A DNA stretch of 64,000 nt from Mucilaginibacter sp. Its GTDB lineage: Bacteria > Bacteroidota > Bacteroidia > Sphingobacteriales > Sphingobacteriaceae. Both the position numbers and the translations under genes were made by a program. Where the stretch lies: NCBI RefSeq assembly GCF_028287845.1, contig NZ_JAQBOW010000005.1, positions 393 through 64,392 of the forward strand. Reading direction: 5' to 3'. A model generated the notes under the pieces. That model did no database searches. It was not told the origin of the DNA and worked only from the letters and a program-made list of their open reading frames with translations. Below, piece after piece: positions 50,149-63,862 of this stretch; the stretch's first letter is position 1, and every line of letters begins with the position of its first letter.

Positions 50149-51702
50149 TCACCTAATTGGTGTTGCTTTTTCGAACGATTGCTGCTTATTACAACGATCT
50201 TGATAACTCATCGTTTCAGTAATATCCTGGAATATGCCGCGTATTTTTTCGCACTTTCCGTTAATAAATTCGGGGAAGCCGATAGATCTGACTCTAATAG
50301 GGTTACCCTTTCCGGTTATTATATCCATTTCAATATCAAAAGGGGTACAATTTTCAATTGCGTCTTTGCGTAGTTTTATAATCATATCTGAGCTGGCATC
50401 GTCTTTAAAAAACACAAAGGTATCATCCAGAACCGGATCAAAATCTTCCGGTACTTCCAATATTTCTTTCAATACTTTACTCCAGGTACCTGTATTGTTT
50501 TTAAAATCACGCTCCCAAGTCCCTATTCGTGTTATCGTAGTCGTTTTATTGAGCGCTGTGGATATTTGTTTATACTCTTCTTCTTTAAATTTAGTGTTTT
50601 TAAGCTCTTCGGTATATATTAATAAACCGCCAATAATGGTATCGCTTTTATACCATGGCCGTATGTCCCAACGTGCCCAGCCTAACGATCCGTCAATTTT
50701 TTCTATAAGATCCCCTTCCGAATGATCTATATTTCCTTTTAAACATAAATTAAGTTTGTGCTGATATTTTTCTTTTATTCGGGGCCACAGATCATATAAA
50801 CATTTGCCTATGTAACCTTTGTTTTGCAGCTTATATTCTATAACAAATTTCCGGGAAGCAGTTAAAAAACACAAGTCATTATCAACCATAGCGATAGCGA
50901 ACGGTGCCTGCTCAATGAAGGTTCTGTGCTTTTCATCATTTTCTGATTGAAGCTTATTTATAGATTTTTTAGCCGATAGATCATCAATATATTTATGATA
51001 GCAGGCTGAGAAATTTGAGGGGTTGGAAAAATTAAGCATGAGAGCCATCTGCCCTTTGTTTGCTCTTTTTGAGGTGATATAATCATGAGCCAGTTCCATT
51101 TGCAAAGTGCGGTAATACGCAAAAATAGTTTCGCCATACCGTTCTTTAAAATCTCTTTTCAATTTAGATTCAGAGATAAAATATTTTTTGGCAAGTAATT
51201 CAATACCAGGGAATCCGTCAAAAAGGTGTGATTTTAAATTTTCTACAACATCATTCAATATGTCTTTTATGGGTTTTAAGTCTTTGATCCTGTTATCAAG
51301 AACATGCTGTGGGTTGGTAATTGGTTTTTGGTTTAAATCACTAACATCCAAAACATTTACGTAAAACCCTTTTACTTCGCCGTCCTCAATATCCGGGAAG
51401 TAAATAGTCCTTGCTATTTTTTTCTGACCATTTGGCAATTCAATATTGCGGTCAAAAACACTAACTTTTCCACCTAATGCAGTATTAACATACCCTAAGT
51501 TTTGTTGATACAAAGGGCCCAATAATTCTCGTATATGTTTTTTATCAATTGGCCCTGTATGTTCAATACCAAACCAGTACATATAGGCTTTATTGGCATA
51601 TTTGCAAACCAAATCCTTGCCCCAGTAAGCCAGCATTGTATTTGTGTTTTCAGCCGCATTCAATCTTAACTCAATAAAAGTTTTATCGGTCTCAAATGAC
51701 AT
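50149..51702 (-). CDS. PAS-AraC HTH-PAS-PAS transcriptional regulator, paralog 1
   Basis: N-terminal PAS ('MLAYWGKDLVCKYANKAY..WFG'), central AraC double HTH (50989-51213), PAS ('FIEQAPFAIAMVD...RWDIRPW'), PAS/PAC ('RIGTWE...GIFQDIT'). No kinase or receiver domain. Confidence 0.8.
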   Translation of the reverse strand: MSFETDKTFIELRLNAAENTNTMLAYWGKDLVCKYANKAYMYWFGIEHTGPIDKKHIRELLGPLYQQNLGYVNTALGGKVSVFDRNIELPNGQKKIARTIYFPDIEDGEVKGFYVNVLDVSDLNQKPITNPQHVLDNRIKDLKPIKDILNDVVENLKSHLFDGFPGIELLAKKYFISESKLKRDFKERYGETIFAYYRTLQMELAHDYITSKRANKGQMALMLNFSNPSNFSACYHKYIDDLSAKKSINKLQSENDEKHRTFIEQAPFAIAMVDNDLCFLTASRKFVIEYKLQNKGYIGKCLYDLWPRIKEKYQHKLNLCLKGNIDHSEGDLIEKIDGSLGWARWDIRPWYKSDTIIGGLLIYTEELKNTKFKEEEYKQISTALNKTTTITRIGTWERDFKNNTGTWSKVLKEILEVPEDFDPVLDDTFVFFKDDASSDMIIKLRKDAIENCTPFDIEMDIITGKGNPIRVRSIGFPEFINGKCEKIRGIFQDITETMSYQDRCNKQQSFEKATPIR

Positions 51703-51941
51703 AGCAATCCTTTAAGTCTAAAAATTTAGGTATTCTTAAAATTTGTAGCGGCTTTTTGAACTTGAATCAGCTTTAATATAACAAAGCTGCAAAATTAATA
51801 TTAAAAAAATGCGGTATCTCGTCATTATTTTTAAAAGATATAGAACATATCTCTTATTTCCTGTGTACGAATGTGCAAAGTTATCCCCTCTTAGGCATAG
51901 CCAGGACGGTTTTTATGGTTGTTAAATTGGTATTAATTTTA

Positions 51942-52388
51942 TTAAACAGTAATTTCGCCATTGTTTTTTTGCTCGTGGCTTAGCAATTCATTAAATTTTT
52001 CTAATAATTTAATGTACCTGTCCATCCAATAATAAATGGGGTCTTTGGGTTTATCGCCGGGCTCGAGCAAATCGGCCATAACCTCGCCACTAAATAAGTT
52101 TGTTTTTTTTGCAAACTCTTCCGGAAAGTCCCTGGCAAAATCATGTCCTATTATAAAGCCTATTTTACAAATAATGTCAAGGCCTAATTCTTTTGTTTCA
52201 AACCAGTTGTACAGGGTTCGCCTACTAACATGTAGTCTTCTGGCTATTTCGCTAATGCCCATTCGGTCACAGCGTACCACACGCTCCAAAATCCGTCCCT
52301 GGTGCAATTCCGGTTTTTCTGCGGCATTTTTTGCAGATATTGTTTCAAACGCCGAATAATTTGCAGGATAATCGATATGGTTATGCAT
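51942..52388 (-). CDS. XRE/Cro-like helix-turn-helix protein
   Basis: 'MGISEIARRLHVSRRTLYNWF', then 'IGHDFARDFPE' and C-terminal helix 'YWMDRYIKLLEKFNELL'. Confidence 0.75.
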   Translation of the reverse strand: MHNHIDYPANYSAFETISAKNAAEKPELHQGRILERVVRCDRMGISEIARRLHVSRRTLYNWFETKELGLDIICKIGFIIGHDFARDFPEEFAKKTNLFSGEVMADLLEPGDKPKDPIYYWMDRYIKLLEKFNELLSHEQKNNGEITV

Positions 52389-52774
52389 ATTATTATAAAT
52401 TAATTGGTGAAAACTATTTTCATATTTACTGCTAAAGTTTTACTCATTAAACTAATTCATTATAAGCCGAAAATTTCAACCGTATTGATCATTTAACCAC
52501 AGTCAATAGAAACATGATCAACTCTATAATAATGGCCTTAAATATTTCTAATATAAATTTCGCTCGTATTGCACTATGAAACAACCTATTAGCGACCAAT
52601 TAATACCTGAAAAAGGTATTAATTTAATATTTTTTTTTCTTTTTTTATACTTTTTATAACCAGCAAGCACATGAAATTTGCTCAATATCAAGTAAAACCG
52701 AATAAAATTTAACAAATACTACTTGATTTACATCATATATTATGTTTATTAATTGAAAGTAAATAATAATATTT

Positions 52775-54244
52775 TTAATAACTTATATCATGAAATATTC
52801 CCGATATTTTTTCGCATTGGTCATTTTTAAATTCTGAATAGCAAATTAACCTTATCCGTTTTAAATTTTTCTTAGCTGTAATTAATTCCACTTCGATATC
52901 GAAAGACCCTCTTTTTTTGAATACATTATTTAATGAGCTTTTAACCAAATCGCGATTTTTACCTTGCTTGTAAAACTTTAACGAGGCTTCGAGGTTGGCT
53001 ATAACATAATCATCATCAACTTCTAATATTTCTCTTGTAATTTTACTCCAGACAGCTGTGTTTGTTATTGAATTTTGGTACCATGTACCTATACGTTCAA
53101 TTTCATTGGTTTTATTTAATATCTCAAAAAATTGTTTGTCTTTTTCTTCTGCCTGCTTTAAAGCTGTTATATCCTTGGTAAATATCAACACACCTCCCAC
53201 TTCATCAATATTTTTGTACCAGGGCTGTATATCTAATCTTATCCATCCCGGCGTTCCGTCTTTTTGTGTAACAGCAAGGTCAGCATAGTTATTAACTATT
53301 CCTTTTAACGAGTCGAGCTGAAGCGCTCTGAATTTTTCTTCAATGTTGGGCAAAACCTCGTTAAGACTTTTACCAGCCAATTCTGTATCGCTTAAATTGT
53401 ATTCGTTAAGCCATTTTTGTGAGGTTGTTATAAAATGCATGTTTATATCAAACAGAGCGACTGCAGCAACAGACTGTTCGACAAAATCCTTATAGTTTGC
53501 AAGGTTATAATTATTGATATCGCTTATATGCCTGTGTTCTAAATACTTTTTATAGCACGCTGAGAAGTTTGATGGATTTGAAAAATTGAACATCAAAGCC
53601 AACTGGTTTTTATTATACTTTTTGGCACTTAGATACTTGTTTGCCAATTCCATCTGCAAATTGCGATAGTACGCAAATATGGTTATCCCGTATTTTTCCT
53701 TAAAATCTCTTTTTAGCTTTGATTCTGATACATAATACTTCTTAGCAAGATTTGATATTCCCGGAAATCCTGTCAATACACTTGCTGCTAAGGCTTGTTG
53801 TATATCTTCAAGACCTTGATGATTGTGAGGCAAGGTCTTTTTTAGGTTATCATTTAAAGTCGGGTTAACAACATTATTCATATCGGCTACATGCACAAAT
53901 ATTCCTTTAACATCGTTTTCATCAAAGTCGGGCACGTAGGTTATCTTCGCATTTAATACCTTACCCGATGGTGTGGGGATCATACTATTAAAAATCTGTG
54001 TTTTACCATCAAACGCTGCTTTTATAAACGGGCCATTTTGTTTGTAAACCGGCCCTAAAAAATCACGAAGATTAATTTTATTTATCATCTGTTCGGGCAG
54101 GATTCCAAACCAATTAAAAACAGCATTATTAACAAAACGACAAATCAAACCTCTATCCCAATAGGCCAGAATTGTATTTTTATTCATATCAAATACTGAC
54201 ACGGAAGGGCTTTCGGTGCTATTGAATGGCATTTTTTTTTTCAT
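52775..54244 (-). CDS. PAS-AraC HTH-PAS-PAS transcriptional regulator, paralog 2
   Basis: Same domain order as paralog 1; AraC HTH at 53543-53767; ends 'SGIFHDISY*'. Confidence 0.8.
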   Translation of the reverse strand: MKKKMPFNSTESPSVSVFDMNKNTILAYWDRGLICRFVNNAVFNWFGILPEQMINKINLRDFLGPVYKQNGPFIKAAFDGKTQIFNSMIPTPSGKVLNAKITYVPDFDENDVKGIFVHVADMNNVVNPTLNDNLKKTLPHNHQGLEDIQQALAASVLTGFPGISNLAKKYYVSESKLKRDFKEKYGITIFAYYRNLQMELANKYLSAKKYNKNQLALMFNFSNPSNFSACYKKYLEHRHISDINNYNLANYKDFVEQSVAAVALFDINMHFITTSQKWLNEYNLSDTELAGKSLNEVLPNIEEKFRALQLDSLKGIVNNYADLAVTQKDGTPGWIRLDIQPWYKNIDEVGGVLIFTKDITALKQAEEKDKQFFEILNKTNEIERIGTWYQNSITNTAVWSKITREILEVDDDYVIANLEASLKFYKQGKNRDLVKSSLNNVFKKRGSFDIEVELITAKKNLKRIRLICYSEFKNDQCEKISGIFHDISY

Positions 54245-54307: not shown

Positions 54308-56263
54308 TTATACGATCTCTGCAGGCATAGAACTTTTATCCAGCTTTTGATATTGAGAATTATTGCTGATAAAATCTGGTAGAATGGCTTTCATTTTACC
54401 AACCATTCCATCTACGTTATTTAGGAGGTTAATATCCAGTAACTCTTTAATTACGGTATTTATCTCGTCATAACAGTTGGGTATGGTTTTAGATATTTTA
54501 ATATCCTTATTATAGGTGGGTATAACAGTCTCGTTATCATTCAACAATTCTTCATAAAGTTTTTCTCCGGGCCTAAGGCCGGTAAAAAGTATTTTTATAT
54601 CCACATCAGGAACAAACCCTGCGAGTTTAATCATGTTAATGGCCAGGTCAGTTATTTTCACGGGTTTTCCCATATCAAAAATAAATATCTCGCCACCGTT
54701 ACCCATAACCGAAGCTTCAAGTACAAGATGCACGGCTTCAGGAATGGTCATAAAATAGCGGGTAATATCGGGATGTGTAACAGTTATTGGCCCCCCGCGT
54801 TCTATCTGTGCTTTAAACCTGGGAATAACAGAGCCGTTAGAGCCAAGCACGTTTCCAAAGCGTGTAGTAATAAATTTAGTTTTACATCTTCGGCTGTCCA
54901 CGCTTTTTGTATAGTTAAGCTGGTTGTATATAACCGAATTATTTAAGGCCTGAATATACATTTCGGCAATACGTTTTGATGCCCCCATAACATTGGTGGG
55001 CCGTACAGCTTTATCAGTAGATATCATGATGAATTTCTCTACACCATAGTCAACCGATATATCTGCCAGATTTTTTGTACCCCAAATGTTTGTCAGCACT
55101 GCTTCGGTAGGATGATTTTCCATCATTGGCACATGCTTGTATGCTGCGGCATGAAAAACAATCTGCGGCTTATAAAGATTAAAGAGTGCTTTTATCCGGT
55201 TTGAGTTTTGAATATCTGAAACAAATATTCGGCTTTTATGTGCATAAATACCATCCTCAAGCTCCAGTTGAATATCGTGCAATGGTGTTTCGGCCCGGTC
55301 GCATAACACAACAAACTCCGGGTTATATCCCATAATTTGCCGCACTATCTCTGCTCCTATCGAGCCGGCTGCACCGGTAACCAAAACCCTCTTGCCTTTA
55401 ACTTCACTGCATATATGCTCTTTACATAGTTGAATAGGCGCACGCTCTAACAGATCTTCGATCTTCAGATCTTTAAATTGATGCGAAGTTGGCATACCAT
55501 TTAGCCACTGGTTTGATGGAGCCACCGTTATCACCTTGATCCCGTACTCAATGCATTTTTCTACAGCACTTCTTTTACTGTCTGTATTAAGGTCCTCGGC
55601 TGTAATAAACATTGTTGATATGGAGAACTTTTGTTTCAAATTTTGGATAGACTTTACAGGGTGAACCTGGGTTTGCTCAATATATTTATACAGCTTATCC
55701 AAACCGGGATCAATAAAACCCTGTACGTTGATTAGCAAGCCTTTTTGGGTTTCGAGCGCCTTTTTTACCAATATGGAATGGTTTCCCGCCCCATATATTA
55801 AAACATTATCTCTCTTTATTGAAAAACCAGGTTCGTCAATGTATTTAAAAAGGTCTTTTATAATGATGCGCACGCCCATAAGCAAAGAGGACGAGATGAA
55901 AAAATTGACGAGTAAAATTGCGCCAAGCCCCGCCACACTAAAATAGGTACCAAATAATGACAAACACAGAAAAACAAACGACATGCTGCTTAGCAATACC
56001 GTAAACAAAACGCGCAGCATATCTCTGGTGTTCGAGTATCTTACAATACGGGTGTGTACTCGCATTAAAGTGAAAATTAAAAGCGCATTGCCGCAATACA
56101 ATGCCATATAAAACAGGTTGTCATGTTTTAGATTCAGTTTTCCCTTTAATGAAAACGATAGACAAATTGATGATATAACTATCAGCATATCTGTAAAAAG
56201 CACCAACCACTTGGAATGGAACTTATCTTGAAATAGTAAGTTTCTGATGTAGATCATAATCAA
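54308..56263 (-). CDS. CapD/PglF/WbpM-type membrane-bound UDP-GlcNAc 4,6-dehydratase
   Basis: N-terminal TM helices, 'IEDLLER', 'VLVTGAAGSIGAE', 'FHAAAYKHVP', 'STDKAV.PTNVMGASKR', 'RFGNVLGSNGSV', 'GLRPGEKLYEEL'. Confidence 0.92.
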   Translation of the reverse strand: MIMIYIRNLLFQDKFHSKWLVLFTDMLIVISSICLSFSLKGKLNLKHDNLFYMALYCGNALLIFTLMRVHTRIVRYSNTRDMLRVLFTVLLSSMSFVFLCLSLFGTYFSVAGLGAILLVNFFISSSLLMGVRIIIKDLFKYIDEPGFSIKRDNVLIYGAGNHSILVKKALETQKGLLINVQGFIDPGLDKLYKYIEQTQVHPVKSIQNLKQKFSISTMFITAEDLNTDSKRSAVEKCIEYGIKVITVAPSNQWLNGMPTSHQFKDLKIEDLLERAPIQLCKEHICSEVKGKRVLVTGAAGSIGAEIVRQIMGYNPEFVVLCDRAETPLHDIQLELEDGIYAHKSRIFVSDIQNSNRIKALFNLYKPQIVFHAAAYKHVPMMENHPTEAVLTNIWGTKNLADISVDYGVEKFIMISTDKAVRPTNVMGASKRIAEMYIQALNNSVIYNQLNYTKSVDSRRCKTKFITTRFGNVLGSNGSVIPRFKAQIERGGPITVTHPDITRYFMTIPEAVHLVLEASVMGNGGEIFIFDMGKPVKITDLAINMIKLAGFVPDVDIKILFTGLRPGEKLYEELLNDNETVIPTYNKDIKISKTIPNCYDEINTVIKELLDINLLNNVDGMVGKMKAILPDFISNNSQYQKLDKSSMPAEIV

Positions 56264-56268
56264 GAGAA

Positions 56269-57312
56269 TTAGGATGTTTGAAAAGCCGGCGTGTACCTGT
56301 ATAATGGGAAGAAGTCTACTTCGGTATTTTTATCAATACCCTTTTGATCAAGTAATTGCTGGTAGATAACCGGATTTGCTATATAGCGCCAGCTTTTATA
56401 GTCAAGAAGCAAATCAGAGAATGCTTTTTTCCAATAAAAAAGCGTGTCGTTTTGAAATCCAAGCCCCCCACCAAGATTATAATAACGCATCTCCAATTTA
56501 CAACCAATTTGTGCTATGCCATCAATTAAAAATTTTGCCGGGCTATCCTGTAGGTATTCGGTCCTTGTACCAATTAAATGCAATTGAATTATTTCATTGG
56601 TAAATACCGCAATTGTGCTGCTAGTAGCTACATCGCCTTTATATGCCGTAAATACCCGGGCGTCATATTCAGTATTGTTAAGCAGTTCTAAATAATAGCT
56701 ATCATCAAAAAAGTACGAGTCGGCAGCTCTTATCCTACTCATATTCTGGTTATAAATTTCGCGGAAAATTTTAATTGCGTCCGGCCCTTTCTCTTCTTTA
56801 ATATAGTAACCCTTTTTTAATGAGTTTCTAATACTGTCCCAGGTTGTATGTCTATAATTCTTTCGGTGCTGTTCAATGCTTTTAGTGAGGTCAATAACTA
56901 CTACCTGGCCATTGTCGTAAATACCGCCAAATTCCTCAAGCAGCAATTGTTGGTTATAAAAGGGGTTCAACCTCAAAAACACTGAAACATAATTTCCGTC
57001 TGATAAAAATTCAAGAAAAGCTTTTTTAAAATTGCTTATCAATGTTGAATCAATACCATCCATTTTTTGGTTTGATAGCGGTCCGGAGTACCCATATACA
57101 CAGGTCAAGTCATAGTAATTTGATTCCGGTATCTCGCGTTGAATAAGCGGTACGGCAATAAAATCAGATTGTTCACTATAAATAAATAAAATTGGCAAGC
57201 CTGTATTATCAAGCGAATGATAATGCCACGTATGATAAAAATCAATTTCTACCGATTGATTTACATGCGCTACCCACTCGGCTTTATCCTTAATAGTTAA
57301 TATTTTGATCAT
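56269..57312 (-). CDS. FemAB-like GNAT-fold acyl/aminoacyl transferase
   Basis: 'DFYHTWHY', 'YDLTCVYGYSGP', 'SVFLRLNP', 'YFFDDSYY', 'YNLGGG', 'LFYWKKAFS', 'FFPLYR'. Confidence 0.7.
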   Translation of the reverse strand: MIKILTIKDKAEWVAHVNQSVEIDFYHTWHYHSLDNTGLPILFIYSEQSDFIAVPLIQREIPESNYYDLTCVYGYSGPLSNQKMDGIDSTLISNFKKAFLEFLSDGNYVSVFLRLNPFYNQQLLLEEFGGIYDNGQVVVIDLTKSIEQHRKNYRHTTWDSIRNSLKKGYYIKEEKGPDAIKIFREIYNQNMSRIRAADSYFFDDSYYLELLNNTEYDARVFTAYKGDVATSSTIAVFTNEIIQLHLIGTRTEYLQDSPAKFLIDGIAQIGCKLEMRYYNLGGGLGFQNDTLFYWKKAFSDLLLDYKSWRYIANPVIYQQLLDQKGIDKNTEVDFFPLYRYTPAFQTS

Positions 57313-57324
57313 AGGTGGATTTAT

Positions 57325-57843
57325 TTAGGTGCTGATTAATTTAAATAAAGGCTCAATTTCGATGAAACGATCCCTGGAAATACTCATCGTAATATTGCCG
57401 TCATCTTTACCTGTTATTTCAAAGCCCGCCCTTTCATAAATAGATATGGCCGCAATATTTGCGGGGTGCACTTTCAGATAAATAACTTCAAGTTTTCTTT
57501 CAAAGAAACCATACCTAAGCATCAACACGGTAGCCTGGAAACCTATACCCTTACCCCAGTAAAGTTTGTTGCCGATAAACAGATGCAGCTCAGCACTCTT
57601 CCCTTGAAAATCAAGCAATTGAACATTTCCTACATAGGTATCAAGCTCTTTAACGCATATCGCAAAACGGCTTTGGTCGGGTTTATTCAAATTATTTCTT
57701 AGCCAATCAAGTTCCATTTCTTTGGTGATAACTCTATTTGGTTTAAACCCGGTATAAGTCCACACCGATGGGTCGTTTCGCCATAAATAAGATACTTCAG
57801 CATCTTCAAGAACCAGTGGCCTTATGTATATTGAAATGATCAT
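57325..57843 (-). CDS. GNAT N-acyltransferase (RimJ/L- or PseH-like)
   Basis: 'IRPL..EDA..SYLWRND', 'YVGNVQL', 'IGNKLYWGKGIG', 'N.AAISIYERAGF'. Confidence 0.85.
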   Translation of the reverse strand: MIISIYIRPLVLEDAEVSYLWRNDPSVWTYTGFKPNRVITKEMELDWLRNNLNKPDQSRFAICVKELDTYVGNVQLLDFQGKSAELHLFIGNKLYWGKGIGFQATVLMLRYGFFERKLEVIYLKVHPANIAAISIYERAGFEITGKDDGNITMSISRDRFIEIEPLFKLIST

Positions 57844-58811
57844 AAAAAAGTGCGTAAAGTATTTAAAATATAAAGCATATCATGTAGGCTATACCTATGG
57901 TCGATAGGCAATGGAACAATACAGCGTGCCAGGTAATTTTCATACATCCGGGTATCAGTCCACTTAAAAACATTCGGCCAATAGGTGGCCACATAAATAT
58001 TATGTTGGATCAAATGCAATTTAAGCTGCTTGTTATTTGACAAAAACGGATAAACCATTGGTGAGTATTCTTCCGGAAAATTAAACTTGAATAAATTATA
58101 TTCCTTCAAATGTTTGTGAAGAAAATTAAAGTTCCGTTTTCTAATCCTGGCGCATTCTGCATAATTAACACCTGCAAGGATCTTCCGCGTTAGGGGTGAC
58201 ATGATCCTAATCGGATTATTCTCCAGGTCTTTATTGTTTTTTACATAATCACTATATCCTTGTTGTACACCCAGATCAATATTTTTAATAAGATGCGAGA
58301 AGCGATTTACCGAACTGTCAACAGCATATTTTTTAGTTGATTTTTTTTTAATTTGCAGATATGCCCCATCAGCAACACCAAAGAATTTCCTGCACGAGTA
58401 AAAGGTATCAATACCGGGCAATGGTTCTGAAAAAAAGGCCTGAGAATTATCTATTATAAGGTTAGTTATCTTAGTACTCAAGCACTTAACTGCGTGCTGT
58501 TTAATGCCAAAATAGTTGGTATACAAAAAAACGGCATCGGGCTCTATCTCAAAATCAATAATTGGTTCCAGGTGATCATCAATTGAGTAAAATTGGTATG
58601 GAATATTCAATTTTTGGATAGGCTCCAGCAATACATCGCATGTAAAATATGGGATATAGATTTTCTTATATCCTTTTTCTCTCAAAATATATTCTAATGC
58701 ATTTCTCCCGGTATTCAACCGTATAAGGTGCGTGTAATACTCACTCCCAGGAGGAAGTTCCAAACCGAAATACCCACCAATTGTTAAGTGTGAAGTTTCT
58801 ATTTTTTGCAT
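57840..58811 (-). CDS. Divergent DegT/DnrJ/EryC1/StrS-like PLP-dependent sugar aminotransferase
   Basis: 'TGRNAL', 'YIPYFTCD', 'YTNYFG', 'IIDNSQAF', PLP-lysine loop 'FYSCRKFFG..DG', 'LPIDHRY'. Confidence 0.65.
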   Translation of the reverse strand: MQKIETSHLTIGGYFGLELPPGSEYYTHLIRLNTGRNALEYILREKGYKKIYIPYFTCDVLLEPIQKLNIPYQFYSIDDHLEPIIDFEIEPDAVFLYTNYFGIKQHAVKCLSTKITNLIIDNSQAFFSEPLPGIDTFYSCRKFFGVADGAYLQIKKKSTKKYAVDSSVNRFSHLIKNIDLGVQQGYSDYVKNNKDLENNPIRIMSPLTRKILAGVNYAECARIRKRNFNFLHKHLKEYNLFKFNFPEEYSPMVYPFLSNNKQLKLHLIQHNIYVATYWPNVFKWTDTRMYENYLARCIVPLPIDHRYSLHDMLYILNTLRTFL

Positions 58812-58845
58812 GATATAAAATGAAAGGTGAAAGGATAATATAAGT

Positions 58846-59649
58846 TCAGCTTTGATCGTGCTTGTACATTCTTAAATGAGGTGGCTGGTAATAGTCGCTT
58901 AAATTAGCCGGTATACATGCGTTGTAGCCAATGATCTGTCGAAGTTCGGGCTTTAAACCGGCAACAAAATCGTAGCCTAAAAACCTTGAATAGTCCATCT
59001 GCTGTTTTAAAAACGGTTGGGTAAAGCCCAGTATTAATGCCCTGCGTGGCTCAGGTGTAACATTTTCTCCATTAGCATACCATAAATTCGAGTTAAAAAG
59101 TATAATGCTTCCTTTTGGTGTAACAACACTGTCTGCATGAGTATAAAAAAACTCTTCATCAGGTTTCAAAGCAGTTTTATGTGATCCTGAAAGAAAATAT
59201 ATTGCCCCGTTTTGCAGCGTAAAGTCATCAAGGGTAATAATCATTTGCAGCAATAATTTTGTTTTGCTTATAAATGTGCTTGCATCCCTGTGCATATTAT
59301 TCTGATAAGGACACTCTTGTTTTGAATATATTGCGCCATTCATTCCATTCAAAATATGCTTACCTCCGAAATATTGGGTTATTTCTTCATTGCAATACAT
59401 TCTTTCAAGAAGGGGAATGCTAAAATTATCGCGATCAAGAAGATGATAATGGATACCATCCATATTTGCACTTATACCATTTCTTTCCTGTATGCTTTTG
59501 CGGCGTATATAACCGTCTTCTATGTCATTGTTGATCCTGTTGATAAAATCCGATTCTATAGCATTTTCGTAAACAACCCATCCATAAGTATCAAGTGATA
59601 CTTTAAAATCGTTTAGTGCCTTTTCGGGGTAATTGAACTTATTTTTCAT
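58846..59649 (-). CDS. PhyH-like 2-oxoglutarate/Fe(II) dioxygenase-fold protein (distal His replaced by Tyr)
   Basis: 'MHRDA', 'TLDDFT..NGA..FLSGSH', 'GSIILFNSNLWYANGEN', 'RRAL'. Confidence 0.75.
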   Translation of the reverse strand: MKNKFNYPEKALNDFKVSLDTYGWVVYENAIESDFINRINNDIEDGYIRRKSIQERNGISANMDGIHYHLLDRDNFSIPLLERMYCNEEITQYFGGKHILNGMNGAIYSKQECPYQNNMHRDASTFISKTKLLLQMIITLDDFTLQNGAIYFLSGSHKTALKPDEEFFYTHADSVVTPKGSIILFNSNLWYANGENVTPEPRRALILGFTQPFLKQQMDYSRFLGYDFVAGLKPELRQIIGYNACIPANLSDYYQPPHLRMYKHDQS

Positions 59650-59678: not shown

Positions 59679-60821
59679 TCAGTTTAATTGCATGATCTTT
59701 AACATTTGTGCATTAACCAGGTGAACGTCGAATTTTTTTCTGGCAAGTTTCAGCCCGTTCAAGCCATATTTAAGAACGTCGAGCCTATTATTCAAATAAA
59801 ATTCCATTTTTGAAATTAGTTGGGGTACGTTTTTAATTGGAACCATGAAACCGTTCACAGCCGAATTTGAGTCAATCGTTTCTCTGCACCCCACAGAATC
59901 ACAGGTTATAATGGCTCTTCCCATAGCCATACTTTCTAAAAGACATCGTGGCACCCCCTCGCCATAATAAGAAGGTAATACCACCACCGATGAATTCATT
60001 ATATGCGGGCGCACATCTTCAACCTCCCCAACATATTGAATGGTTTCACCATATCGTATCTTATTATACAGATCCGGGCTTATGGCATCAATATTTTTTT
60101 CATATGCTCCTATTAGTTTAAAATTAACATCAGGGTAACGTGAACGAATGTCTCTGGCAGCTTCATAATATTCATAAATGCCTTTAGCATTTATTAAACG
60201 GGCAACCATAATAAAGTTTATTGGTTCCAGATCTGGCGGGGTATATACATAATGTTCCAGATCTACTCCTGATCCATTTACAAAAAACACCCGATGCTTG
60301 TTGGTTAATATTCTATTCTGAACCAGGGTTTGGTAATCATCTTTGTTTTGAAAAATAATTTTCAAGTTCCTTTTTGGCCTTAAACTAAATTTTAGCAATG
60401 ACCGTGTAATGGCGCTAATCCAATTATTATTTTTTTTATTGGTGAAATTATATCCCAATCCGGTTAACATAGGTATGATACGCTTAACGCCACATATCTT
60501 GGCTAATAAAGTACCGTAGATAACAGGTTTAAAGGTGTAAGGGAAAAAAACATCGGGCCGCACTCTTTTTATCAATCTATATAATTGAAAAATGAACCTC
60601 ATATCCGACAAAACGGAAACGTGACTACCTTCCAAATGGCTTTCATGAATCACTACGCCAAGCGATGTTAACTTTTCGCGTACACTTTGCTGCATTATTT
60701 TCGGTGTAAAAACATCCACACTGTGCTTTTTAAGGAGTTCTTCCATCAGTTTTCCTCTAAAATCAATTAATGATTTCGACGAATCGCATACAATAAGGAT
60801 CTTTTGTCCTGGTTTATTCAT
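59679..60821 (-). CDS. GT4 glycosyltransferase (PglA/CapM-like)
   Basis: 'FRGKL', 'YTFKPVIYG', 'TGLG', 'FQNKDD', 'GSGVDL', 'VARL..AKG', 'LPSYYGEGVPRCLLESMAMG'. Confidence 0.92.
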   Translation of the reverse strand: MNKPGQKILIVCDSSKSLIDFRGKLMEELLKKHSVDVFTPKIMQQSVREKLTSLGVVIHESHLEGSHVSVLSDMRFIFQLYRLIKRVRPDVFFPYTFKPVIYGTLLAKICGVKRIIPMLTGLGYNFTNKKNNNWISAITRSLLKFSLRPKRNLKIIFQNKDDYQTLVQNRILTNKHRVFFVNGSGVDLEHYVYTPPDLEPINFIMVARLINAKGIYEYYEAARDIRSRYPDVNFKLIGAYEKNIDAISPDLYNKIRYGETIQYVGEVEDVRPHIMNSSVVVLPSYYGEGVPRCLLESMAMGRAIITCDSVGCRETIDSNSAVNGFMVPIKNVPQLISKMEFYLNNRLDVLKYGLNGLKLARKKFDVHLVNAQMLKIMQLN

Positions 60822-61060: not shown

Positions 61061-61101
61061 AAAAAATTCCAAACCGCCATTTATAATAGCGGTTTGGAAT
61101 T
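61061..61101 (-). terminator. Intrinsic terminator after the PL1-like gene
   Basis: 13-bp stem AATTCCAAACCGC/GCGGTTTGGAATT with a T-run on the minus strand. Confidence 0.75.
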
Positions 61102-61130: not shown

Positions 61131-62564
61131 TTAGTTGGTTAGTATAGCACCAGAACCTTTTTGAACAACAGAAGGAACATTTGCTGCCGCATCAAGAACA
61201 GCGCTATATGAATATCCTGGCACCCATGATGAAATTGGTGTTGTAATATCGTTAGCACCGCAATTTGAATAAATATTGGTAGTTACACCACTGAAATAAC
61301 CCGGAGGGTCACCGGCAAGATTAGTGGTAAGTGGTTTAGCACATCCTGAAAAATACTCATTATCAGTACGTACATTACCCGCAGCTCTTGCTCCTAATGA
61401 GTAACCGCCGTTGTTTAAGTGATAATCGTTGAATACATGCACGCTACCGTAATTCATATCAGGTTCGCGTTCGCTAACATTATACCAGAAATTGTGGTGT
61501 AATGTAACATGTAAATGGCCTATATCTTCCTCATTACCTGCAATTCCACCACTAATCAGGAAAGATAAGTTTGTATCGTGGAACCTGCTCCATGATACAG
61601 TTACATAATCAGATGCCCGAGTAATAGACATATCCTTGCCCCAATAAGCCCATCCATGATTACGGTCTGTAGCAAAATCGCAATGATCAACCCATACGTG
61701 AGTTGTTGCAAATTTTAGCATTATAGCAGCATCAGTTACATAGTTTCTAAAGGTTATATTTTGAATGATGATATTGTTCATCGTAAAAATATAGAGTGAT
61801 ACGCCCTCAATGATTGCACCCGGTTTCCCTATGATGGATTTATTGGATGATACATAAACCGGAACATCGCCAGAGCCCAGGATATGCCCGCTTACATAGA
61901 TAATTTTAGGCGTGGTACCTGCAACTGCTGTTTTCAAATCGGCCAATGTAGAAACAGTTACGGTTTGGCCACCGGCACCGCCAGTTGTAGTTCCGTTTAC
62001 CATGGCATAGCCCATAAGCGCGCTACTTACACCAGTAGTTGTTGCGGTACCGCTGCCGGTTGTTGTTGTGCCCGTGCCTGTTGTGCCGGTACCTGTTGTG
62101 CCGGTAGTTGGTGTGCCACCCATAGTGAAAGTATACTTTCTGCCGTTTGTTGTCGGATTGGTATTGTCCGAAGCTGAGAAATACAATGTTGTACCCCAAT
62201 GACTGAAACGCCCTTTACCATAATCGCGAATGTCCTGATGAACTGAATGAGCAGGACCTAATTCAACACCGTTTTCAAAAAGCCGTAAGGTTGACACGCT
62301 TGGTGACGTGTTTGAGTCGCCGTTTTGAGACAATGGATAATTAATGTGGTAAGCATATCCACCATCAGATCTTAAACCAGATAAATTTACGTTGTAGACG
62401 GTGGTTGCTGTCGTTGCATAGCTAGTGCTATCCGATAGTGTAGTACCACTTAACGTTGCCGGTGACGTATTCCCATTTTTTTTACAACTACCAAAGAAGA
62501 TAATTGCACTGAAGACCATGCTGATAACAGCCATTTTGTTGTAGAACTTTGTTTGTCTTTTCAT
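61131..62564 (-). CDS. Lipoprotein: uncharacterised N-terminal module, Thr/Gly linker, PL1-like beta-helix lyase domain
   Basis: Lipobox 'FFGSCKK'; 'TTGGAGG.TVTVST', 'VSSNKSIIG', 'NNIIIQNITF', 'VWVDH', 'YVTVSW', 'VTLHHN.W', 'HVFND'. Confidence 0.8.
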   Translation of the reverse strand: MKRQTKFYNKMAVISMVFSAIIFFGSCKKNGNTSPATLSGTTLSDSTSYATTATTVYNVNLSGLRSDGGYAYHINYPLSQNGDSNTSPSVSTLRLFENGVELGPAHSVHQDIRDYGKGRFSHWGTTLYFSASDNTNPTTNGRKYTFTMGGTPTTGTTGTGTTGTGTTTTGSGTATTTGVSSALMGYAMVNGTTTGGAGGQTVTVSTLADLKTAVAGTTPKIIYVSGHILGSGDVPVYVSSNKSIIGKPGAIIEGVSLYIFTMNNIIIQNITFRNYVTDAAIMLKFATTHVWVDHCDFATDRNHGWAYWGKDMSITRASDYVTVSWSRFHDTNLSFLISGGIAGNEEDIGHLHVTLHHNFWYNVSEREPDMNYGSVHVFNDYHLNNGGYSLGARAAGNVRTDNEYFSGCAKPLTTNLAGDPPGYFSGVTTNIYSNCGANDITTPISSWVPGYSYSAVLDAAANVPSVVQKGSGAILTN

Positions 62565-62758
62565 ACTTTTTTATTTTAGGACTTCCAAACGCAGTGGTAT
62601 TTGGAAAATTACGCCCTAAAACTTGTAGAAAAGATTAGACTAAAATCAAAAACGGTTCAAAAAATAGCTCAGTTGTACGTGAGCAACGTATACCTGTAAA
62701 GTAAATGTGTAAAGTAGTTGTATAAAATTGCACACTTCGTGACATTATTATGACAATT

Positions 62759-63862
62759 CTATAAGTGCATTACTAACTTTTTTCGAGATAAAGATACCTT
62801 TTTTATTTTATAATAAGCGTTAAACCAATCAGTAAATTTGGCAACCCCGACATGAACAGACGTTGAAGGTTTATAATTTACTGACCTATCAAGATTCGAT
62901 ACATCGGCGCAAGTTTCGGCAACATCACCTTCCTGCATTGGACGAAATATCTTTTTTGCCTTTATATTTATCTGACCCTCGATTTCGGTAACAAAATCTA
63001 AAAGACTAACAGGTTCTCCCCTGCCAATATTAAATATACGGTATGGTGCATTTGATGTAGCCGGATCAGGTTTTAAAGCATCCCAATTTTTATTATTTTC
63101 TGCAGGATGATCAATAACATGCACAATACCTTCAACAATATCATCAATGTAGGTAAAATCACGTTTCATGTTTCCATTATTGAAAATTTCGATAGGCTTA
63201 CCGGTAAGCATCGCTTTTGTAAAAATAAACAAAGCCATATCCGGCCTGCCCCAGGGCCCGTAAACAGTAAAAAAGCGCAGGCCCGTTGTTCGTAAGTTAA
63301 ATAAATGGCTATAAGTATGTGCCATCATTTCGTTGGCTTTTTTTGATGCTGCATACAAAGAAACAGGATGATCGGCAATATCATGTTCATTAAATGGCAT
63401 TTTCTTGTTTAATCCATAAACACTTGATGAACTGGCATATACCAAATGATCTATCTTATTGTGCCTGCAACATTCAAGAATGTTTAAAAATCCTTTTATA
63501 TTAGAATCTACATAAACTTCAGGATTAGTTAAACTATAACGCACACCAGCCTGGGCTGCAAGGTTACAAACCGCATCGAACTTATGGACTAAAAAAATAT
63601 GCTCCAACTCTACCTTATCCAATAAATTAACTTTGATAAAGGTATAATTTGGATATTTCTGACTATTAACAGATTTTCCATATTTCAATTTGGCGGGCGG
63701 TATCCCCGTTTCGGCCAGTCTTGCATGTTTTAATGCCACATCGTAATAATCATTTATATTATCAATACCAACAACGGTGTCTCCTCTTTCAAGCAAGCGC
63801 TTTGCCAAATGAAAGCCAATAAAACCGGCTGTACCAGTGATTAAAATTTTCATAAAATTCAA
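62759..63862 (-). CDS. NAD-dependent epimerase, UDP-glucuronate 4-epimerase (CapI/Gla-like)
   Basis: 'ITGTAGFIG', '[11 protein letters not shown]', 'YASSSSVYG', 'YAASKK', '[16 protein letters not shown]', 'RDFTYIDD'. Confidence 0.9.

What the first reader, a model, noticed from the sequence alone, without database searches (positions are those of the whole stretch)
61131..62000. PL1-fold lyase inside a polysaccharide biosynthesis locus with a remodelled active site
Seen: the first Ca-ligand Asp (TDAAI), VWVDH and the catalytic Arg of RxP are kept. The usual DGxxD calcium motif reads YWGKDMSI (61623-61646) and RxPxxR reads REPDMN (61452-61469). The gene lies between UDP-GlcA epimerase and GT4. 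Established: Bacillus-type pectate lyases need those Asp and Arg residues, and EPS loci often encode a dedicated lyase or hydrolase (AlgL, PslG, BcsZ). Inference: it acts on the cell's own uronate-containing EPS, not pectin, perhaps Ca-independently, or is a non-catalytic binder.
Basis: partly seen in the sequence, partly recalled or inferred. Interest (0 to 1): 0.55.

Follow-up and report, generated by a model that had tools for sequence, protein, structure and literature searches.

The report
Capsule-locus lyase that lost its calcium site
A lipid-anchored pectate-lyase-like enzyme is a fixed part of a sugar-coat (capsule/slime) synthesis gene cluster in soil Sphingobacteriaceae. In this Mucilaginibacter lineage its calcium-binding residues have been swapped for a new, strictly conserved set, so it probably cuts the cell's own polymer without metal, but no experiment has tested this.

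Summary
The gene is longer than flagged: window 61131-62564, minus strand, 477 aa. It has a lipoprotein signal (Cys27), an uncharacterised ~95-aa beta-sandwich domain, a Thr/Gly linker and a PL1 beta-helix.

- **Active site.** Against solved PL1 lyases, DGxxD reads GKDMS, the conserved Lys is Leu333, and RxPxxR reads REPDMN. WVDH and Arg366-x-Pro368 are kept.
- **Not decay.** In 125 relatives Gly309, Lys310, Asp311, Glu365, Arg366 and Glu367 are 98-100% conserved. The "first Asp" (D278) is not.
- **Genome context.** This is the genome's only PL1 gene. In 46 of 55 Sphingobacteriaceae loci the ortholog lies between a UDP-GlcA 4-epimerase and a GT4 inside one conserved cluster. The closest complete relative shows that cluster to be a Wza/Wzc/Wzx/Wzy locus.
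- **Evolution.** Syntenic orthologs in other genera keep canonical or partly canonical calcium residues. The remodelled form is one clade (support 99), with natural intermediates.

Best reading (about 0.6): a dedicated, probably metal-independent lyase acting on the locus's own GalA-containing polysaccharide. It resembles VexL in role and pectin lyase in active-site logic. A non-catalytic binder or a relocated metal site is not excluded. I class it as a new variant of a known kind, of moderate interest.

The parts
61131..62564 (-). Complete gene, 477 aa (P0001): lipoprotein signal, N-terminal beta-sandwich domain, Thr/Gly linker and PL1 beta-helix.
   Evidence: ORF list and translation. Full-length homologs of 455-485 aa in Mucilaginibacter and Pedobacter.
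62484..62564 (-). Signal peptide with lipobox FFGSC. Cys27 is the predicted lipidated residue.
   Evidence: Sequence. Cys27 is invariant in the 22-sequence alignment A1. The lipoprotein call is inferred from the motif and was not run through a predictor.
62121..62402 (-). N-terminal domain (residues ~55-148), no Pfam family. Hallmark motif: FSHWG...YFSASDNTNP.TNGRKY.
   Evidence: No Pfam or NCBIfam hit. Invariant residues in A1 and A2. A stand-alone paralog 56% identical lies just beyond the window end (L001:46-474). The AF2 model is a beta-sandwich; the best VIA match is Z 8.2 to the accessory domain of GH120 XylC (3vst), which is weak.
62028..62120 (-). Thr/Gly-rich linker (residues ~149-179), predicted disordered.
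   Evidence: pLDDT 25-31 in the model. Length and sequence vary in A1. It accounts for the local GC rise to 0.43.
61134..62027 (-). PL1 parallel beta-helix domain (residues 180-477).
   Evidence: PF00544 E 5e-25. PDB hit 7bbv E 4.8e-44. Foldseek hits on 7bbv, 7xks, 3zsc and VexL 6fi2.
61722..61736 (-). TDAAI. Asp278 aligns with the first Ca-ligand Asp of canonical PL1.
   Evidence: Alignment to 7bbv. The position is variable in the clade (D/N/Q/S/E/Y/H).
61683..61697 (-). VWVDH, the structural hallmark motif of PL1, retained.
   Evidence: W291, D293 and H294 are at least 99% conserved in the remodelled clade and in its locus-linked relatives that keep DGxxD; in other PL1 they are 99%, 99% and 93%.
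61623..61646 (-). YWGKDMSI, which replaces YYDGLLDI. Both Ca-ligand Asp are lost (Gly309, Ser313) and new invariant Lys310-Asp311 appear.
   Evidence: Gap-free alignments to 7bbv and to syntenic orthologs. Conservation in 125 sequences: G309 0.99, K310 1.00, D311 0.98, W308 0.94.
61563..61580 (-). HDTNLS. The conserved carboxylate-binding Lys of HDxxK is Leu333.
   Evidence: Alignment to 7bbv, HDHFK versus HDTNL. The clade survey shows L in the remodelled clade versus K in canonical PL1.
61452..61469 (-). REPDMN. The catalytic-position Arg366 and Pro368 are kept and flanked by Glu365 and Glu367. The second Arg is Asn371.
   Evidence: alignment. E365 1.00, R366 1.00, E367 0.99, P368 1.00 in 125 sequences. 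P. africanus and P. heparinus orthologs still have Arg at position 371.
61065..61101 (-). Intrinsic-terminator-like hairpin (17-bp stem then a T-run), 30 nt after the stop codon.
   Evidence: Terminator scan. Folding gives -26.3 kcal/mol, z -5.6.
62565..62758 (-). 194-nt upstream intergenic region with a block conserved among Mucilaginibacter orthologs (GTAATTTT ... CCGTTTGG ... CCTAAAAT). It is a candidate own promoter and leader.
   Evidence: Sequence comparison. No exact TAnnTTTG box was found and RNAalifold found no consensus structure. The epimerase-to-PL1 gap has a median of 230 nt in 46 loci, against 27 nt for other gene pairs of the cluster.
62759..63862 (-). UDP-glucuronate 4-epimerase-type SDR, conserved upstream neighbour.
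   Evidence: Pfam Epimerase. PDB 5u4q 9e-133 and B. cereus UDP-GlcA 4-epimerase 6zl6 2e-45. Adjacent to the lyase in 46 loci.
59679..60821 (-). GT4 glycosyltransferase, conserved downstream neighbour.
   Evidence: Pfam. Synteny.
54308..59649 (-). Rest of the conserved block in the window: PhyH-type dioxygenase, unknown 323-aa protein, GNAT, FemAB-like protein, and a WbpM/PglF-type membrane 4,6-dehydratase.
   Evidence: Pfam and NCBIfam. Same order in relatives.

Best explanation
The gene encodes a lipid-anchored, envelope-located PL1-family enzyme that belongs to a Wzx/Wzy-type capsule/exopolysaccharide cluster and acts on the polymer that cluster makes. That polymer is inferred to contain galacturonic-acid-type residues supplied by the adjacent UDP-GlcA 4-epimerase.

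In the Mucilaginibacter/Pedobacter lineage of this window, the ancestral Ca2+-dependent pectate-lyase site (three Asp, a Lys and a second Arg) has been replaced. The Arg at the catalytic position (Arg366) is kept. A new invariant Lys310-Asp311 pair and Glu365/Glu367 surround it. Several positions have also switched to aromatic residues in the clade (Tyr275, Trp308, Trp360).

The most likely mechanism is metal-independent beta-elimination. Lys310 would take over the charge-neutralising role of Ca2+, as Arg does in pectin lyases. Alternatively it could act as the base with a Glu partner, as proposed for RbmB. The substrate would be a modified (acetylated, amidated or otherwise less anionic) uronate. 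The likely role is to trim, release or clear the cell's own polysaccharide, under its own promoter and terminator.

- Shown: fold, motifs, conservation, synteny, single origin.
- Inferred: catalysis, metal independence, substrate, location, role.
For: 1. PL1 fold and family.
2. The remodelled residues are fixed, not drifting. In 125 sequences G309 is 0.99, K310 1.00, D311 0.98, E365 1.00, R366 1.00, E367 0.99 and P368 1.00, at overall identities down to about 52%.
3. Single origin. With the trait columns masked, the GKD group is one clade (SH-aLRT 99), nested among syntenic orthologs that keep DGxxD.
4. Natural intermediates occupy the same locus position. Desertivirga: D | DGLID | K | ERQPRIR. 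Many Pedobacter: Y | DGLLD | I | ERQPSTR. Pedobacter sp. SYSU D00535: DGLID | I | ERAPDMK. P. africanus and P. heparinus: GKD | L | EREPxTR.
5. Locus membership. 15 of 16 loci and 46 of 55 named loci have epimerase-PL1-GT4 inside AsnB...WbpM. Five of the eight exceptions sit about 3 kb upstream of GlmS-Wza-Wzc of the same locus.
6. The cluster in the 70%-identical ortholog's genome carries Wza, Wzc, a NusG/UpxY-like protein, Wzx and a Wzy-like protein.
7. Co-occurrence with the cluster marker unk323 in 301 family genomes: 26 have both, 8 PL1 only, 6 marker only.
8. It is the only PL1 in the genome and there is no CE8.
9. Lipobox with invariant Cys27.
10. Own terminator and long flanking intergenic regions.
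11. Precedents: VexL, a PL1 homolog in a capsule locus, EDTA-insensitive and lacking the DxD motifs (PMC6003464); RbmB, a beta-helix lyase on the cell's own amidated EPS with a proposed Lys base and only partial Ca stimulation (PMC12993940).
Against: - No biochemical or genetic data exist for any member.
- The environment of Arg366 has become more acidic (E365, E367, D311; loss of K, R and Ca2+). This should raise the Arg pKa and argues against Arg acting as the base in the canonical way.
- Asp311 can be aligned, with gaps, to the first Asp of DGxxD of a Bacillus-type lyase (1vbl). Together with E365 and E367 it could form a relocated metal site, so metal independence is not established.
- I had no model coordinates, so the geometry of K310, D311, E365 and E367 relative to R366 was not examined.
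- The polymer's structure is unknown. GalA content is inferred only from the epimerase.
- Four of 30 genomes with a close unk323 homolog (at least 46% identity) gave no PL1 hit, so the enzyme may be dispensable.
Confidence: 0.6

Rival explanations
1. It is still a metal-dependent lyase on the cell's own polysaccharide. The metal site has moved rather than vanished, with Asp311, Glu365 and Glu367 (all newly fixed or clade-specific carboxylates around Arg366) as the new ligands.
For: Three invariant acidic residues cluster in sequence around the catalytic Arg. HMMER aligns D311 with the first Asp of DGxxD in 1vbl when gaps are allowed. Canonical PL1 enzymes bind additional Ca2+ ions between enzyme and substrate carboxylates (my recollection of the family literature).
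Against: The gap-free alignment to the closest relatives places D311 two residues after the lost ligand. The other two canonical ligand positions, 278 and 313, are variable. Lys310 is gained at the same time, as expected for charge replacement. VexL and pectin lyases show that PL1 can work without metal.
Confidence: 0.17
2. It is a non-catalytic polysaccharide-binding lipoprotein (a pseudo-lyase). It holds or guides the nascent polymer in the envelope or on the surface, perhaps with the N-terminal domain and its stand-alone paralog.
For: Four canonical active-site residues are lost: two Asp, the Lys and the second Arg. The setting around Arg366 is acidic. The N-domain also exists as a separate lipoprotein in the same locus, which fits a binding or scaffolding module.
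Against: Arg366-x-Pro368 is 100% conserved, and the replacement residues are themselves invariant. That pattern fits a tuned catalytic site better than a mere binding groove. Metal-free PL1 catalysis is documented.
Confidence: 0.15
3. It is an ordinary plant-pectin or pectin-ester lyase for nutrition that merely happens to lie in this locus.
For: The best sequence and structure matches are pectate lyases. The genome has two GH28-like genes. Loss of the Ca site with gain of aromatic residues is what distinguishes pectin lyases from pectate lyases (my recollection of the literature).
Against: The position inside a biosynthetic cluster is conserved across at least 8 named genera. No SusC/SusD or other pectin-utilisation genes flank it. 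No CE8 was found and there is only one PL1. Presence tracks the cluster, not the genus: 2 of 31 genomes of the window's own genus.
Confidence: 0.05

Closest known systems
VexL (PDB 6FI2), the Vi-antigen lyase of Achromobacter/Bordetella capsule loci (PMC6003464)
   Same: A PL1-fold homolog encoded inside a polysaccharide biosynthesis locus. It lacks the Ca-binding Asp motifs, is exported to the envelope and acts on the cell's own galacturonate-type polymer (poly-GalNAcA). It is a direct sequence and fold hit (E 1.5e-14; Foldseek rank 16).
   Different: VexL is only a distant relative; fungal and Bacillus pectate lyases score far better. VexL belongs to an ABC-transporter capsule system, whereas this is a Wza/Wzc/Wzx/Wzy locus. 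VexL is a soluble periplasmic protein with disulfides and has no N-terminal beta-sandwich domain. VexL keeps an electropositive groove with R232, R235, K195 and R172. Here the second Arg and the Lys are lost and Glu/Asp are gained.
Canonical PL1 pectate lyases (Verticillium PelB 7BBV, Bacillus 7XKS/3VMV, BsPel, PelC)
   Same: Same Pfam family and fold, the WVDH motif, and Arg-x-Pro at the catalytic position. About 35% identity to 7bbv over the domain.
   Different: DGxxD reads GKDMS, the conserved Lys is Leu, and the second Arg is Asn. The first Asp is not conserved in the clade. The protein is lipid-anchored with an extra domain, and it is encoded in a biosynthesis locus rather than a degradative one.
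Syntenic 'DG-type' orthologs in Desertivirga, Daejeonella, Sphingobacterium and many Pedobacter
   Same: Same architecture (lipoprotein, N-domain, PL1) and the same position between epimerase and GT4 in the same cluster. They share the clade-specific residues W305, E365, Y388 and W447.
   Different: They retain DG(L/I)xD and the second Arg, and in some cases also the Lys and the first Asp. They are predicted to be still Ca-dependent. The window's clade is the derived state.
Pectin lyases A/B of Aspergillus (PL1; 1IDK, 1QCX)
   Same: PL1 enzymes in which the Ca site is abolished and a basic side chain takes its place. Their cleft is rich in aromatic residues and they act on charge-neutralised (methyl-esterified) galacturonan (from my recollection of the literature). 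They are fold hits (ranks 22-28).
   Different: They are much more distant in sequence and the substitutions differ (Arg at the first ligand position, versus Gly-Lys-Asp here). They are secreted fungal enzymes for plant cell-wall degradation.
RbmB of Vibrio cholerae (PDB 9OZL; PMC12993940) and AlgL-type locus-encoded lyases
   Same: Lyases encoded with, and acting on, the producer's own exopolysaccharide. RbmB is a beta-helix enzyme that cleaves next to a glycine-amidated uronic acid, has a proposed Lys base activated by Glu, and is only partly stimulated by Ca.
   Different: These are not PL1 members. RbmB is only a weak fold hit (Foldseek E 3.6e-3). AlgL has an alpha/alpha fold (my recollection).

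Membership tests
Polysaccharide lyase family 1 (Pfam PF00544) | [quoted passage not shown] | tested here: met
   PF00544 E 5.1e-25, 88.8 bits against a cut-off of 24. 7bbv E 4.8e-44. Foldseek top 28 hits are all PL1-fold proteins.
Polysaccharide lyase family 1 (Pfam PF00544) | vWiDH motif and Arg-x-Pro with the catalytic Arg | tested here: met
   VWVDH 290-294 and R366-E-P368. 99-100% conserved in the clade.
Ca2+-dependent pectate lyases within PL1 | Three acidic Ca ligands (first Asp plus DGxxD) | tested here: not met
   DGxxD reads G309-K-D-M-S313. D278 is present here but variable among relatives.
Ca2+-dependent pectate lyases within PL1 | Conserved Lys (HDxxK) and second Arg (RxPxxR) that bind substrate carboxylates | tested here: not met
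   Leu333 and Asn371. L is the norm in the remodelled clade, whereas 89 other PL1 sequences mostly have K and R.
Ca2+-dependent pectate lyases within PL1 | Ca-dependent beta-elimination of polygalacturonate | not testable with these tools
   Needs an enzyme assay with and without EDTA.
VexL-like capsule-locus PL1 lyases | PL1 homolog encoded within a polysaccharide biosynthesis and export locus | tested here: met
   Synteny in 46 of 55 loci. Wza/Wzc/Wzx/Wzy are present in the cluster of the 70%-identical ortholog's genome.
VexL-like capsule-locus PL1 lyases | Absence of the Ca-binding Asp motifs; metal-independent activity | tested here: inconclusive
   Motif loss is shown. Activity and metal independence are untested, and a relocated site (D311/E365/E367) is not excluded.
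VexL-like capsule-locus PL1 lyases | Close sequence kinship to VexL (same subfamily), with the R232/R235/K195 groove | tested here: not met
   VexL is only the 6th-best PDB sequence hit (E 1.5e-14, against 4.8e-44 for a fungal PelB). The residue at +3 from Arg366 is Asp, not Arg. I could not print the residue-level alignment to VexL.
VexL-like capsule-locus PL1 lyases | ABC-transporter-dependent (group 2-like) capsule system | tested here: not met
   The locus has a Wzx flippase, a Wzy-like polymerase, and Wza and Wzc.
Pectin lyases (Ca-independent PL1) | A basic residue occupying the Ca position and an aromatic-rich cleft | tested here: inconclusive
   Lys310 is gained next to the lost ligand, and the switches V->Y275, Y->W308 and F->W360 are fixed. 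No coordinates were available to check that Lys310 reaches the Ca position.
Bacterial lipoproteins | Signal peptide ending in a lipobox with an invariant Cys | tested here: met
   MKRQTK...FFGS-C27, with Cys invariant in alignment A1. Motif-based only; no dedicated predictor was available.

The most novel reading that the evidence does not exclude
Within one orthologous, syntenic gene family, nature has preserved a stepwise series. It runs from a canonical Ca2+-dependent PL1 lyase (Desertivirga), through partial states (many Pedobacter; P. heparinus/africanus), to a form with a different catalytic chemistry. That chemistry could be Lys310 working with Glu367/Asp311 and Arg366, with no metal, acting on an amidated or otherwise non-anionic (possibly zwitterionic) galacturonan-type capsule. 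This would be a new mechanistic subfamily of PL1 with a new substrate class. Less likely, it could be a switch from lyase to hydrolase on the beta-helix scaffold.
Probability: 0.3. Interest if true: 0.65.

Novelty: new variant of a known kind. Interest (0 to 1): 0.5.

Why it matters
Polysaccharide-synthesis loci that carry their own depolymerase (AlgL, PslG, BcsZ, VexL, RbmB) are central to how bacteria control polymer length, release and biofilm dispersal. No such enzyme turned up for Bacteroidota Wzx/Wzy capsule loci in the literature I could search.

This family offers three things:
- a likely dedicated lyase for an uncharacterised, widely conserved Sphingobacteriaceae polysaccharide;
- a second, independent case besides VexL of a PL1 enzyme recruited to biosynthesis and stripped of its calcium site;
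- a ready-made set of natural intermediates for asking how a metal-dependent lyase site is converted to a metal-free one.

It is also a candidate tool enzyme for cutting an unusual, probably modified, galacturonan. These are soil bacteria, so the interest is enzymological and ecological rather than medical.

Tried and rejected
I obtained genomic context through the genome search, the fetch from genomes and the search for related loci instead.
- **N-terminal domain.** Pfam and NCBIfam gave nothing. The ESM Atlas returned only unnamed 'hypothetical protein' clusters. A wide VIA fold search gave a best Z of 8.2 to an accessory beta-sandwich of GH120 XylC and 6.5 to BT_1002, too weak to assign a function.
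- **5' leader.** RNAalifold found no consensus structure despite hairpin-like segments in single sequences. No exact Bacteroidota TAnnTTTG box was found upstream in the window, and the sigma-70 scan was at background.
- **Active site versus locus gene content.** I looked for a link between the remodelled site and gene content (GINT1_N-like plus GT4_b, versus a second AsnB paralog). The pattern is not clean: L020, L022, L042 and L043 lack GINT, while L055, L057, L058 and L061 have it with DG-type lyases. The trait arose only once, so no test is possible.
- **GC rise (0.43)** as a sign of foreign origin: rejected. It coincides with the Thr/Gly-rich linker.
- **Literature.** Searches for Mucilaginibacter EPS composition or a described PL1 in such loci found nothing relevant. 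The scan's earlier notes hold nothing on this protein.
- **Residue geometry.** The positions of Lys310, Asp311, Glu365 and Glu367 could not be examined because model coordinates are not exposed by the tools. The VexL residue-level alignment could not be printed because it ranked below the five alignments shown.
Full report
**What is there.**
The finding's coordinates (61131-62000) cover only the C-terminal part of a 477-codon gene on the minus strand, window 61131-62564. The protein (P0001) has four parts:
- a signal peptide ending in a lipobox (FFGS-C27);
- a ~95-residue domain with no Pfam or NCBIfam family (residues ~55-148);
- a Thr/Gly-rich linker (149-179);
- a PL1 pectate-lyase domain (180-477; PF00544, E 5e-25).

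The window is contig C29:393-64392 of a 3.7-Mb, 95%-complete genome. The closest protein (89% identity) is from a Mucilaginibacter.

**Checking the observation.**
HMMER aligns the domain to the solved lyase 7bbv (E 4.8e-44) without gaps across the critical segments:
- YYDGLLDIT pairs with YWGKDMSIT;
- HDHFK pairs with HDTNL;
- RNPSVRFG pairs with REPDMNYG.

So both Asp of DGxxD are lost (Gly309, Ser313). The second Arg is lost (Asn371). VWVDH and Arg366-x-Pro368 remain. An AlphaFold model has a beta-helix core with pLDDT mostly 80-95. It matches PL1 structures first (7bbv, Foldseek E 4e-16, TM 0.80 on the target), and VexL also appears.

**The remodelled site is selected, not decayed.**
I surveyed 125 homologs that carry the GK motif. 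Conservation is Gly309 0.99, Lys310 1.00, Asp311 0.98, Trp308 0.94, Glu365 1.00, Arg366 1.00, Glu367 0.99 and Pro368 1.00. Whole-protein identity falls to about 52%.

Positions 278 (the 'first Asp') and 313 vary: D/N/Q/S/E/Y/H and S/T/A/G/C respectively. So none of the three canonical ligand positions is maintained.

Other fixed switches relative to the sister group include V->Y275, F->W360 and N->E403. The PL1 domain is somewhat more acidic than in relatives that keep DGxxD, with median pI 6.2 against 7.5.

**It belongs to a polysaccharide cluster.**
The neighbours are a UDP-GlcA 4-epimerase-type SDR and a GT4. The epimerase's best PDB hits are 5u4q (9e-133) and the B. cereus UDP-glucuronate 4-epimerase 6zl6 (2e-45).

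Downstream in the window lie a PhyH-type dioxygenase, an unknown 323-aa protein, a GNAT, a FemAB-like protein and a WbpM/PglF-type dehydratase. Upstream, on the 4 kb of contig beyond the window (L001), lie four further genes plus a truncated one:
- a stand-alone paralog of the N-terminal domain;
- a GT4;
- a GINT1_N-like protein;
- an unknown protein;
- a truncated AsnB-type amidotransferase.

In the complete genome holding the 70%-identical ortholog, the same block continues upstream. It includes GlmS, Wza, Wzc, a NusG/UpxY-like protein, a UDP-HexNAc dehydrogenase, Wzx, two aminotransferases, GT2, GT4, DUF2334 and a Wzy-like protein. This is a Wzx/Wzy-dependent capsule/EPS locus.

- **Synteny.** In 15 of 16 loci from unnamed relatives, the lyase sits between the epimerase and the GT4 of this cluster. 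The same holds in 46 of 55 named Sphingobacteriaceae loci. The genera are Mucilaginibacter, Pedobacter, Sphingobacterium, Daejeonella, Desertivirga, Arcticibacter, Pelobium and Pseudopedobacter.
- **Exceptions.** Eight loci form one Mucilaginibacter subclade, and a ninth holds two tandem DG-type copies (L072). In five of the eight, the gene lies about 3 kb upstream of GlmS-Wza-Wzc of the same locus. In two of the genomes concerned (SMC90 and M. pineti) the cluster was fetched without the lyase, about 25 kb away (L079, L081).
- **Co-occurrence.** Across 301 genomes of the family, 34 have the lyase and 32 have the cluster marker unk323. Twenty-six have both, and only 2 of 31 genomes of the window's own genus have either. 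The gene therefore travels with the cluster. These genomes are not independent, so I attach no statistic.
- **Pectin repertoire.** The window's genome has no other PL1, no CE8 pectinesterase and only two GH28-like genes.

**A separate transcription unit.**
The gene is followed by a 17-bp hairpin and a T-run (61065-61101; z -5.6). It is preceded by a 194-nt intergenic region. Across 46 loci the median gaps are 230 nt before and 102 nt after the lyase, against 27 nt for other adjacent cluster genes. A sequence block upstream of the start is conserved among Mucilaginibacter orthologs. It is not an exact consensus promoter, and RNAalifold found no consensus fold.

**Evolutionary trajectory.**
Orthologs in the same locus position show a graded series:

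| Lineage | First Asp | DGxxD segment | Lys position | RxPxxR segment |
|---|---|---|---|---|
| Desertivirga (tandem copies) | D | DGLID | K | ERQPRIR |
| P. gandavensis, Sphingobacterium | Y | DGLLD | K | ER.P..R |
| Many Pedobacter | Y or G | DGLLD | I | ERQPSTR |
| Daejeonella | Y or G | DELLE | I | ERQPSTR |
| Pedobacter sp. SYSU D00535 | D | DGLID | I | ERAPDMK |
| P. africanus, P. heparinus | Y | GKD.S | L | EREPxTR |
| Window's group | variable | GKD(I/M)x | L | EREPxMN |

A maximum-likelihood tree with the trait columns masked, rooted on PL1 proteins from other phyla, recovers all GK-type proteins as one clade (SH-aLRT 99). The SYSU D00535 protein is its sister, with weak support (81). 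An unmasked tree agrees. The remodelling thus happened once, inside a lineage already tied to this locus.

At 50% clustering of about 15 billion proteins, only four representatives carry the GK motif. The 3,381 hits overall are dominated by canonical motifs.

**How it probably works.**
- **Shown.** A PL1 beta-helix with the catalytic-position Arg, no conserved Ca ligands, new invariant Lys/Asp/Glu residues, a lipoprotein signal, and locus membership next to the enzyme that makes UDP-GalA.
- **Inferred.** It cleaves a GalA-type linkage of the locus's own polymer by beta-elimination without Ca2+.

Two published systems make this plausible. VexL is a PL1 homolog in Vi-capsule loci that lacks the DxD motifs, is unaffected by EDTA and requires the O-acetylated polymer (PMC6003464). 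RbmB is a beta-helix lyase that cuts V. cholerae's own glycine-amidated polysaccharide, with a proposed Lys base activated by Glu and only about 50% stimulation by Ca (PMC12993940). From my recollection of the literature, pectin lyases replace a Ca ligand with Arg and line the cleft with aromatic residues to handle esterified, uncharged substrate. The Lys310 gain and the Tyr/Trp switches here follow the same logic.

Several features hint that the substrate is a modified, less anionic uronate. These are AsnB-type amidotransferases, FemAB-like and GNAT enzymes in the locus, and the acidic turn of the site. This is the weakest link in the argument.

The absence of acidic residues right after Cys27 (CKKNG) suggests retention on the periplasmic side. 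That rests on my recollection of the Bacteroidota export-signal literature and is low confidence.

The role could be trimming, release or clearance of polymer. The separate promoter and terminator suggest regulated use.

**Caveats and rivals.**
- The acidic surroundings of Arg366 argue against a canonical Arg base.
- Asp311, Glu365 and Glu367 might form a relocated metal site. HMMER can align Asp311 with the first DGxxD Asp of 1vbl if gaps are allowed.
- A non-catalytic binding role cannot be excluded.
- Ordinary pectin degradation is unlikely, given the synteny and the gene repertoire.

**Comparison and novelty.**
The protein is a member of PL1 by fold and profile, but it fails the defining residue tests of the Ca-dependent pectate lyases. 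In role it resembles VexL, but it is not a close VexL relative and sits in a different export pathway. I class it as a new variant of a known kind, with moderate interest (0.5). The natural series of intermediates and the unknown substrate are its most attractive aspects.

Noticed in passing
L001:46-474 (minus strand; would be window 64046-64474, just past the window end): A 142-aa stand-alone lipoprotein (P0270) is 56% identical to the lyase's signal peptide plus N-terminal domain. It lies immediately upstream of the epimerase. About 60 similar ~140-aa 'hypothetical proteins' exist, mostly in Mucilaginibacter. Some lyases carry two or three copies of the domain (P0038, P0109, P0120). The fold is a beta-sandwich with only weak matches; function unknown.
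   Followed up: partly
window 62565-62640 (minus strand), and the equivalent regions of L002, L021, L023, L024, L077: A conserved block lies upstream of the lyase start (GTAATTTT ... CCGTTTGG ... CCTAAAAT). In individual sequences a short hairpin precedes the A-rich leader (for example CCAAA-N10-TTTGG in the window and GAAACGG-GCAT-CCGTTTC in L024). RNAalifold gave no consensus structure. It could be a promoter, an operator or a leader element.
   Followed up: partly
window 56269-59649 (minus strand): A sub-block of PhyH-type dioxygenase, unknown 323-aa protein (no family hit), GNAT and one or two FemAB-like proteins is conserved in order across genera, next to a WbpM/PglF-type dehydratase. 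It suggests an unusual, possibly amino-acid-decorated or hydroxylated sugar in the polymer.
   Followed up: no
L001:1589-2503 (minus strand) and orthologs in L002, L004-L006, L021, L023-L031: A bacterial protein matches PF24793 (N-terminal domain of the eukaryotic glucosamine inositolphosphorylceramide transferase GINT1; E 2.5e-33). It is present in most GK-type loci, absent from many DG-type loci, and the correlation is imperfect.
   Followed up: partly
L062:7729-11395 and L066:8188-11368 (Desertivirga); L015, L016: Tandem duplicated, fully canonical (Ca-ligand-bearing) lyase copies occupy the slot where other genera have one gene. In D. xinjiangensis the two PL1 domains are nearly identical, but one copy has an extra N-domain (572 aa against 464 aa).
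   Followed up: no
L032, L033, L036, L039, L048 (Mucilaginibacter pineti, gossypiicola, angelicae, SMC90 group): In this subclade the lyase has moved from the epimerase-GT4 slot to about 3 kb upstream of GlmS-Wza-Wzc at the 5' edge of the same locus. Its motif variant is GKDIG / EREPTLV.
   Followed up: partly
window 50149-54244 and the ends of L014, L021, L023, L024, L046, L047, L050, L056, L065: PAS-AraC regulator homologs recur at the distal end of the cluster in several genera.
   Followed up: partly
L043 and L072 (Pedobacter heparinus S10_4.1); L056 and L070 (Pedobacter sp. KBW06); L057 and L073 (P. polysacchareus): Some genomes hold two loci with lyase paralogs of different motif state. 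Examples are a GK-type lyase in the cluster plus two tandem DG-type copies elsewhere, or two copies of the whole cluster. These are natural material for comparing specificities within one organism.
   Followed up: no
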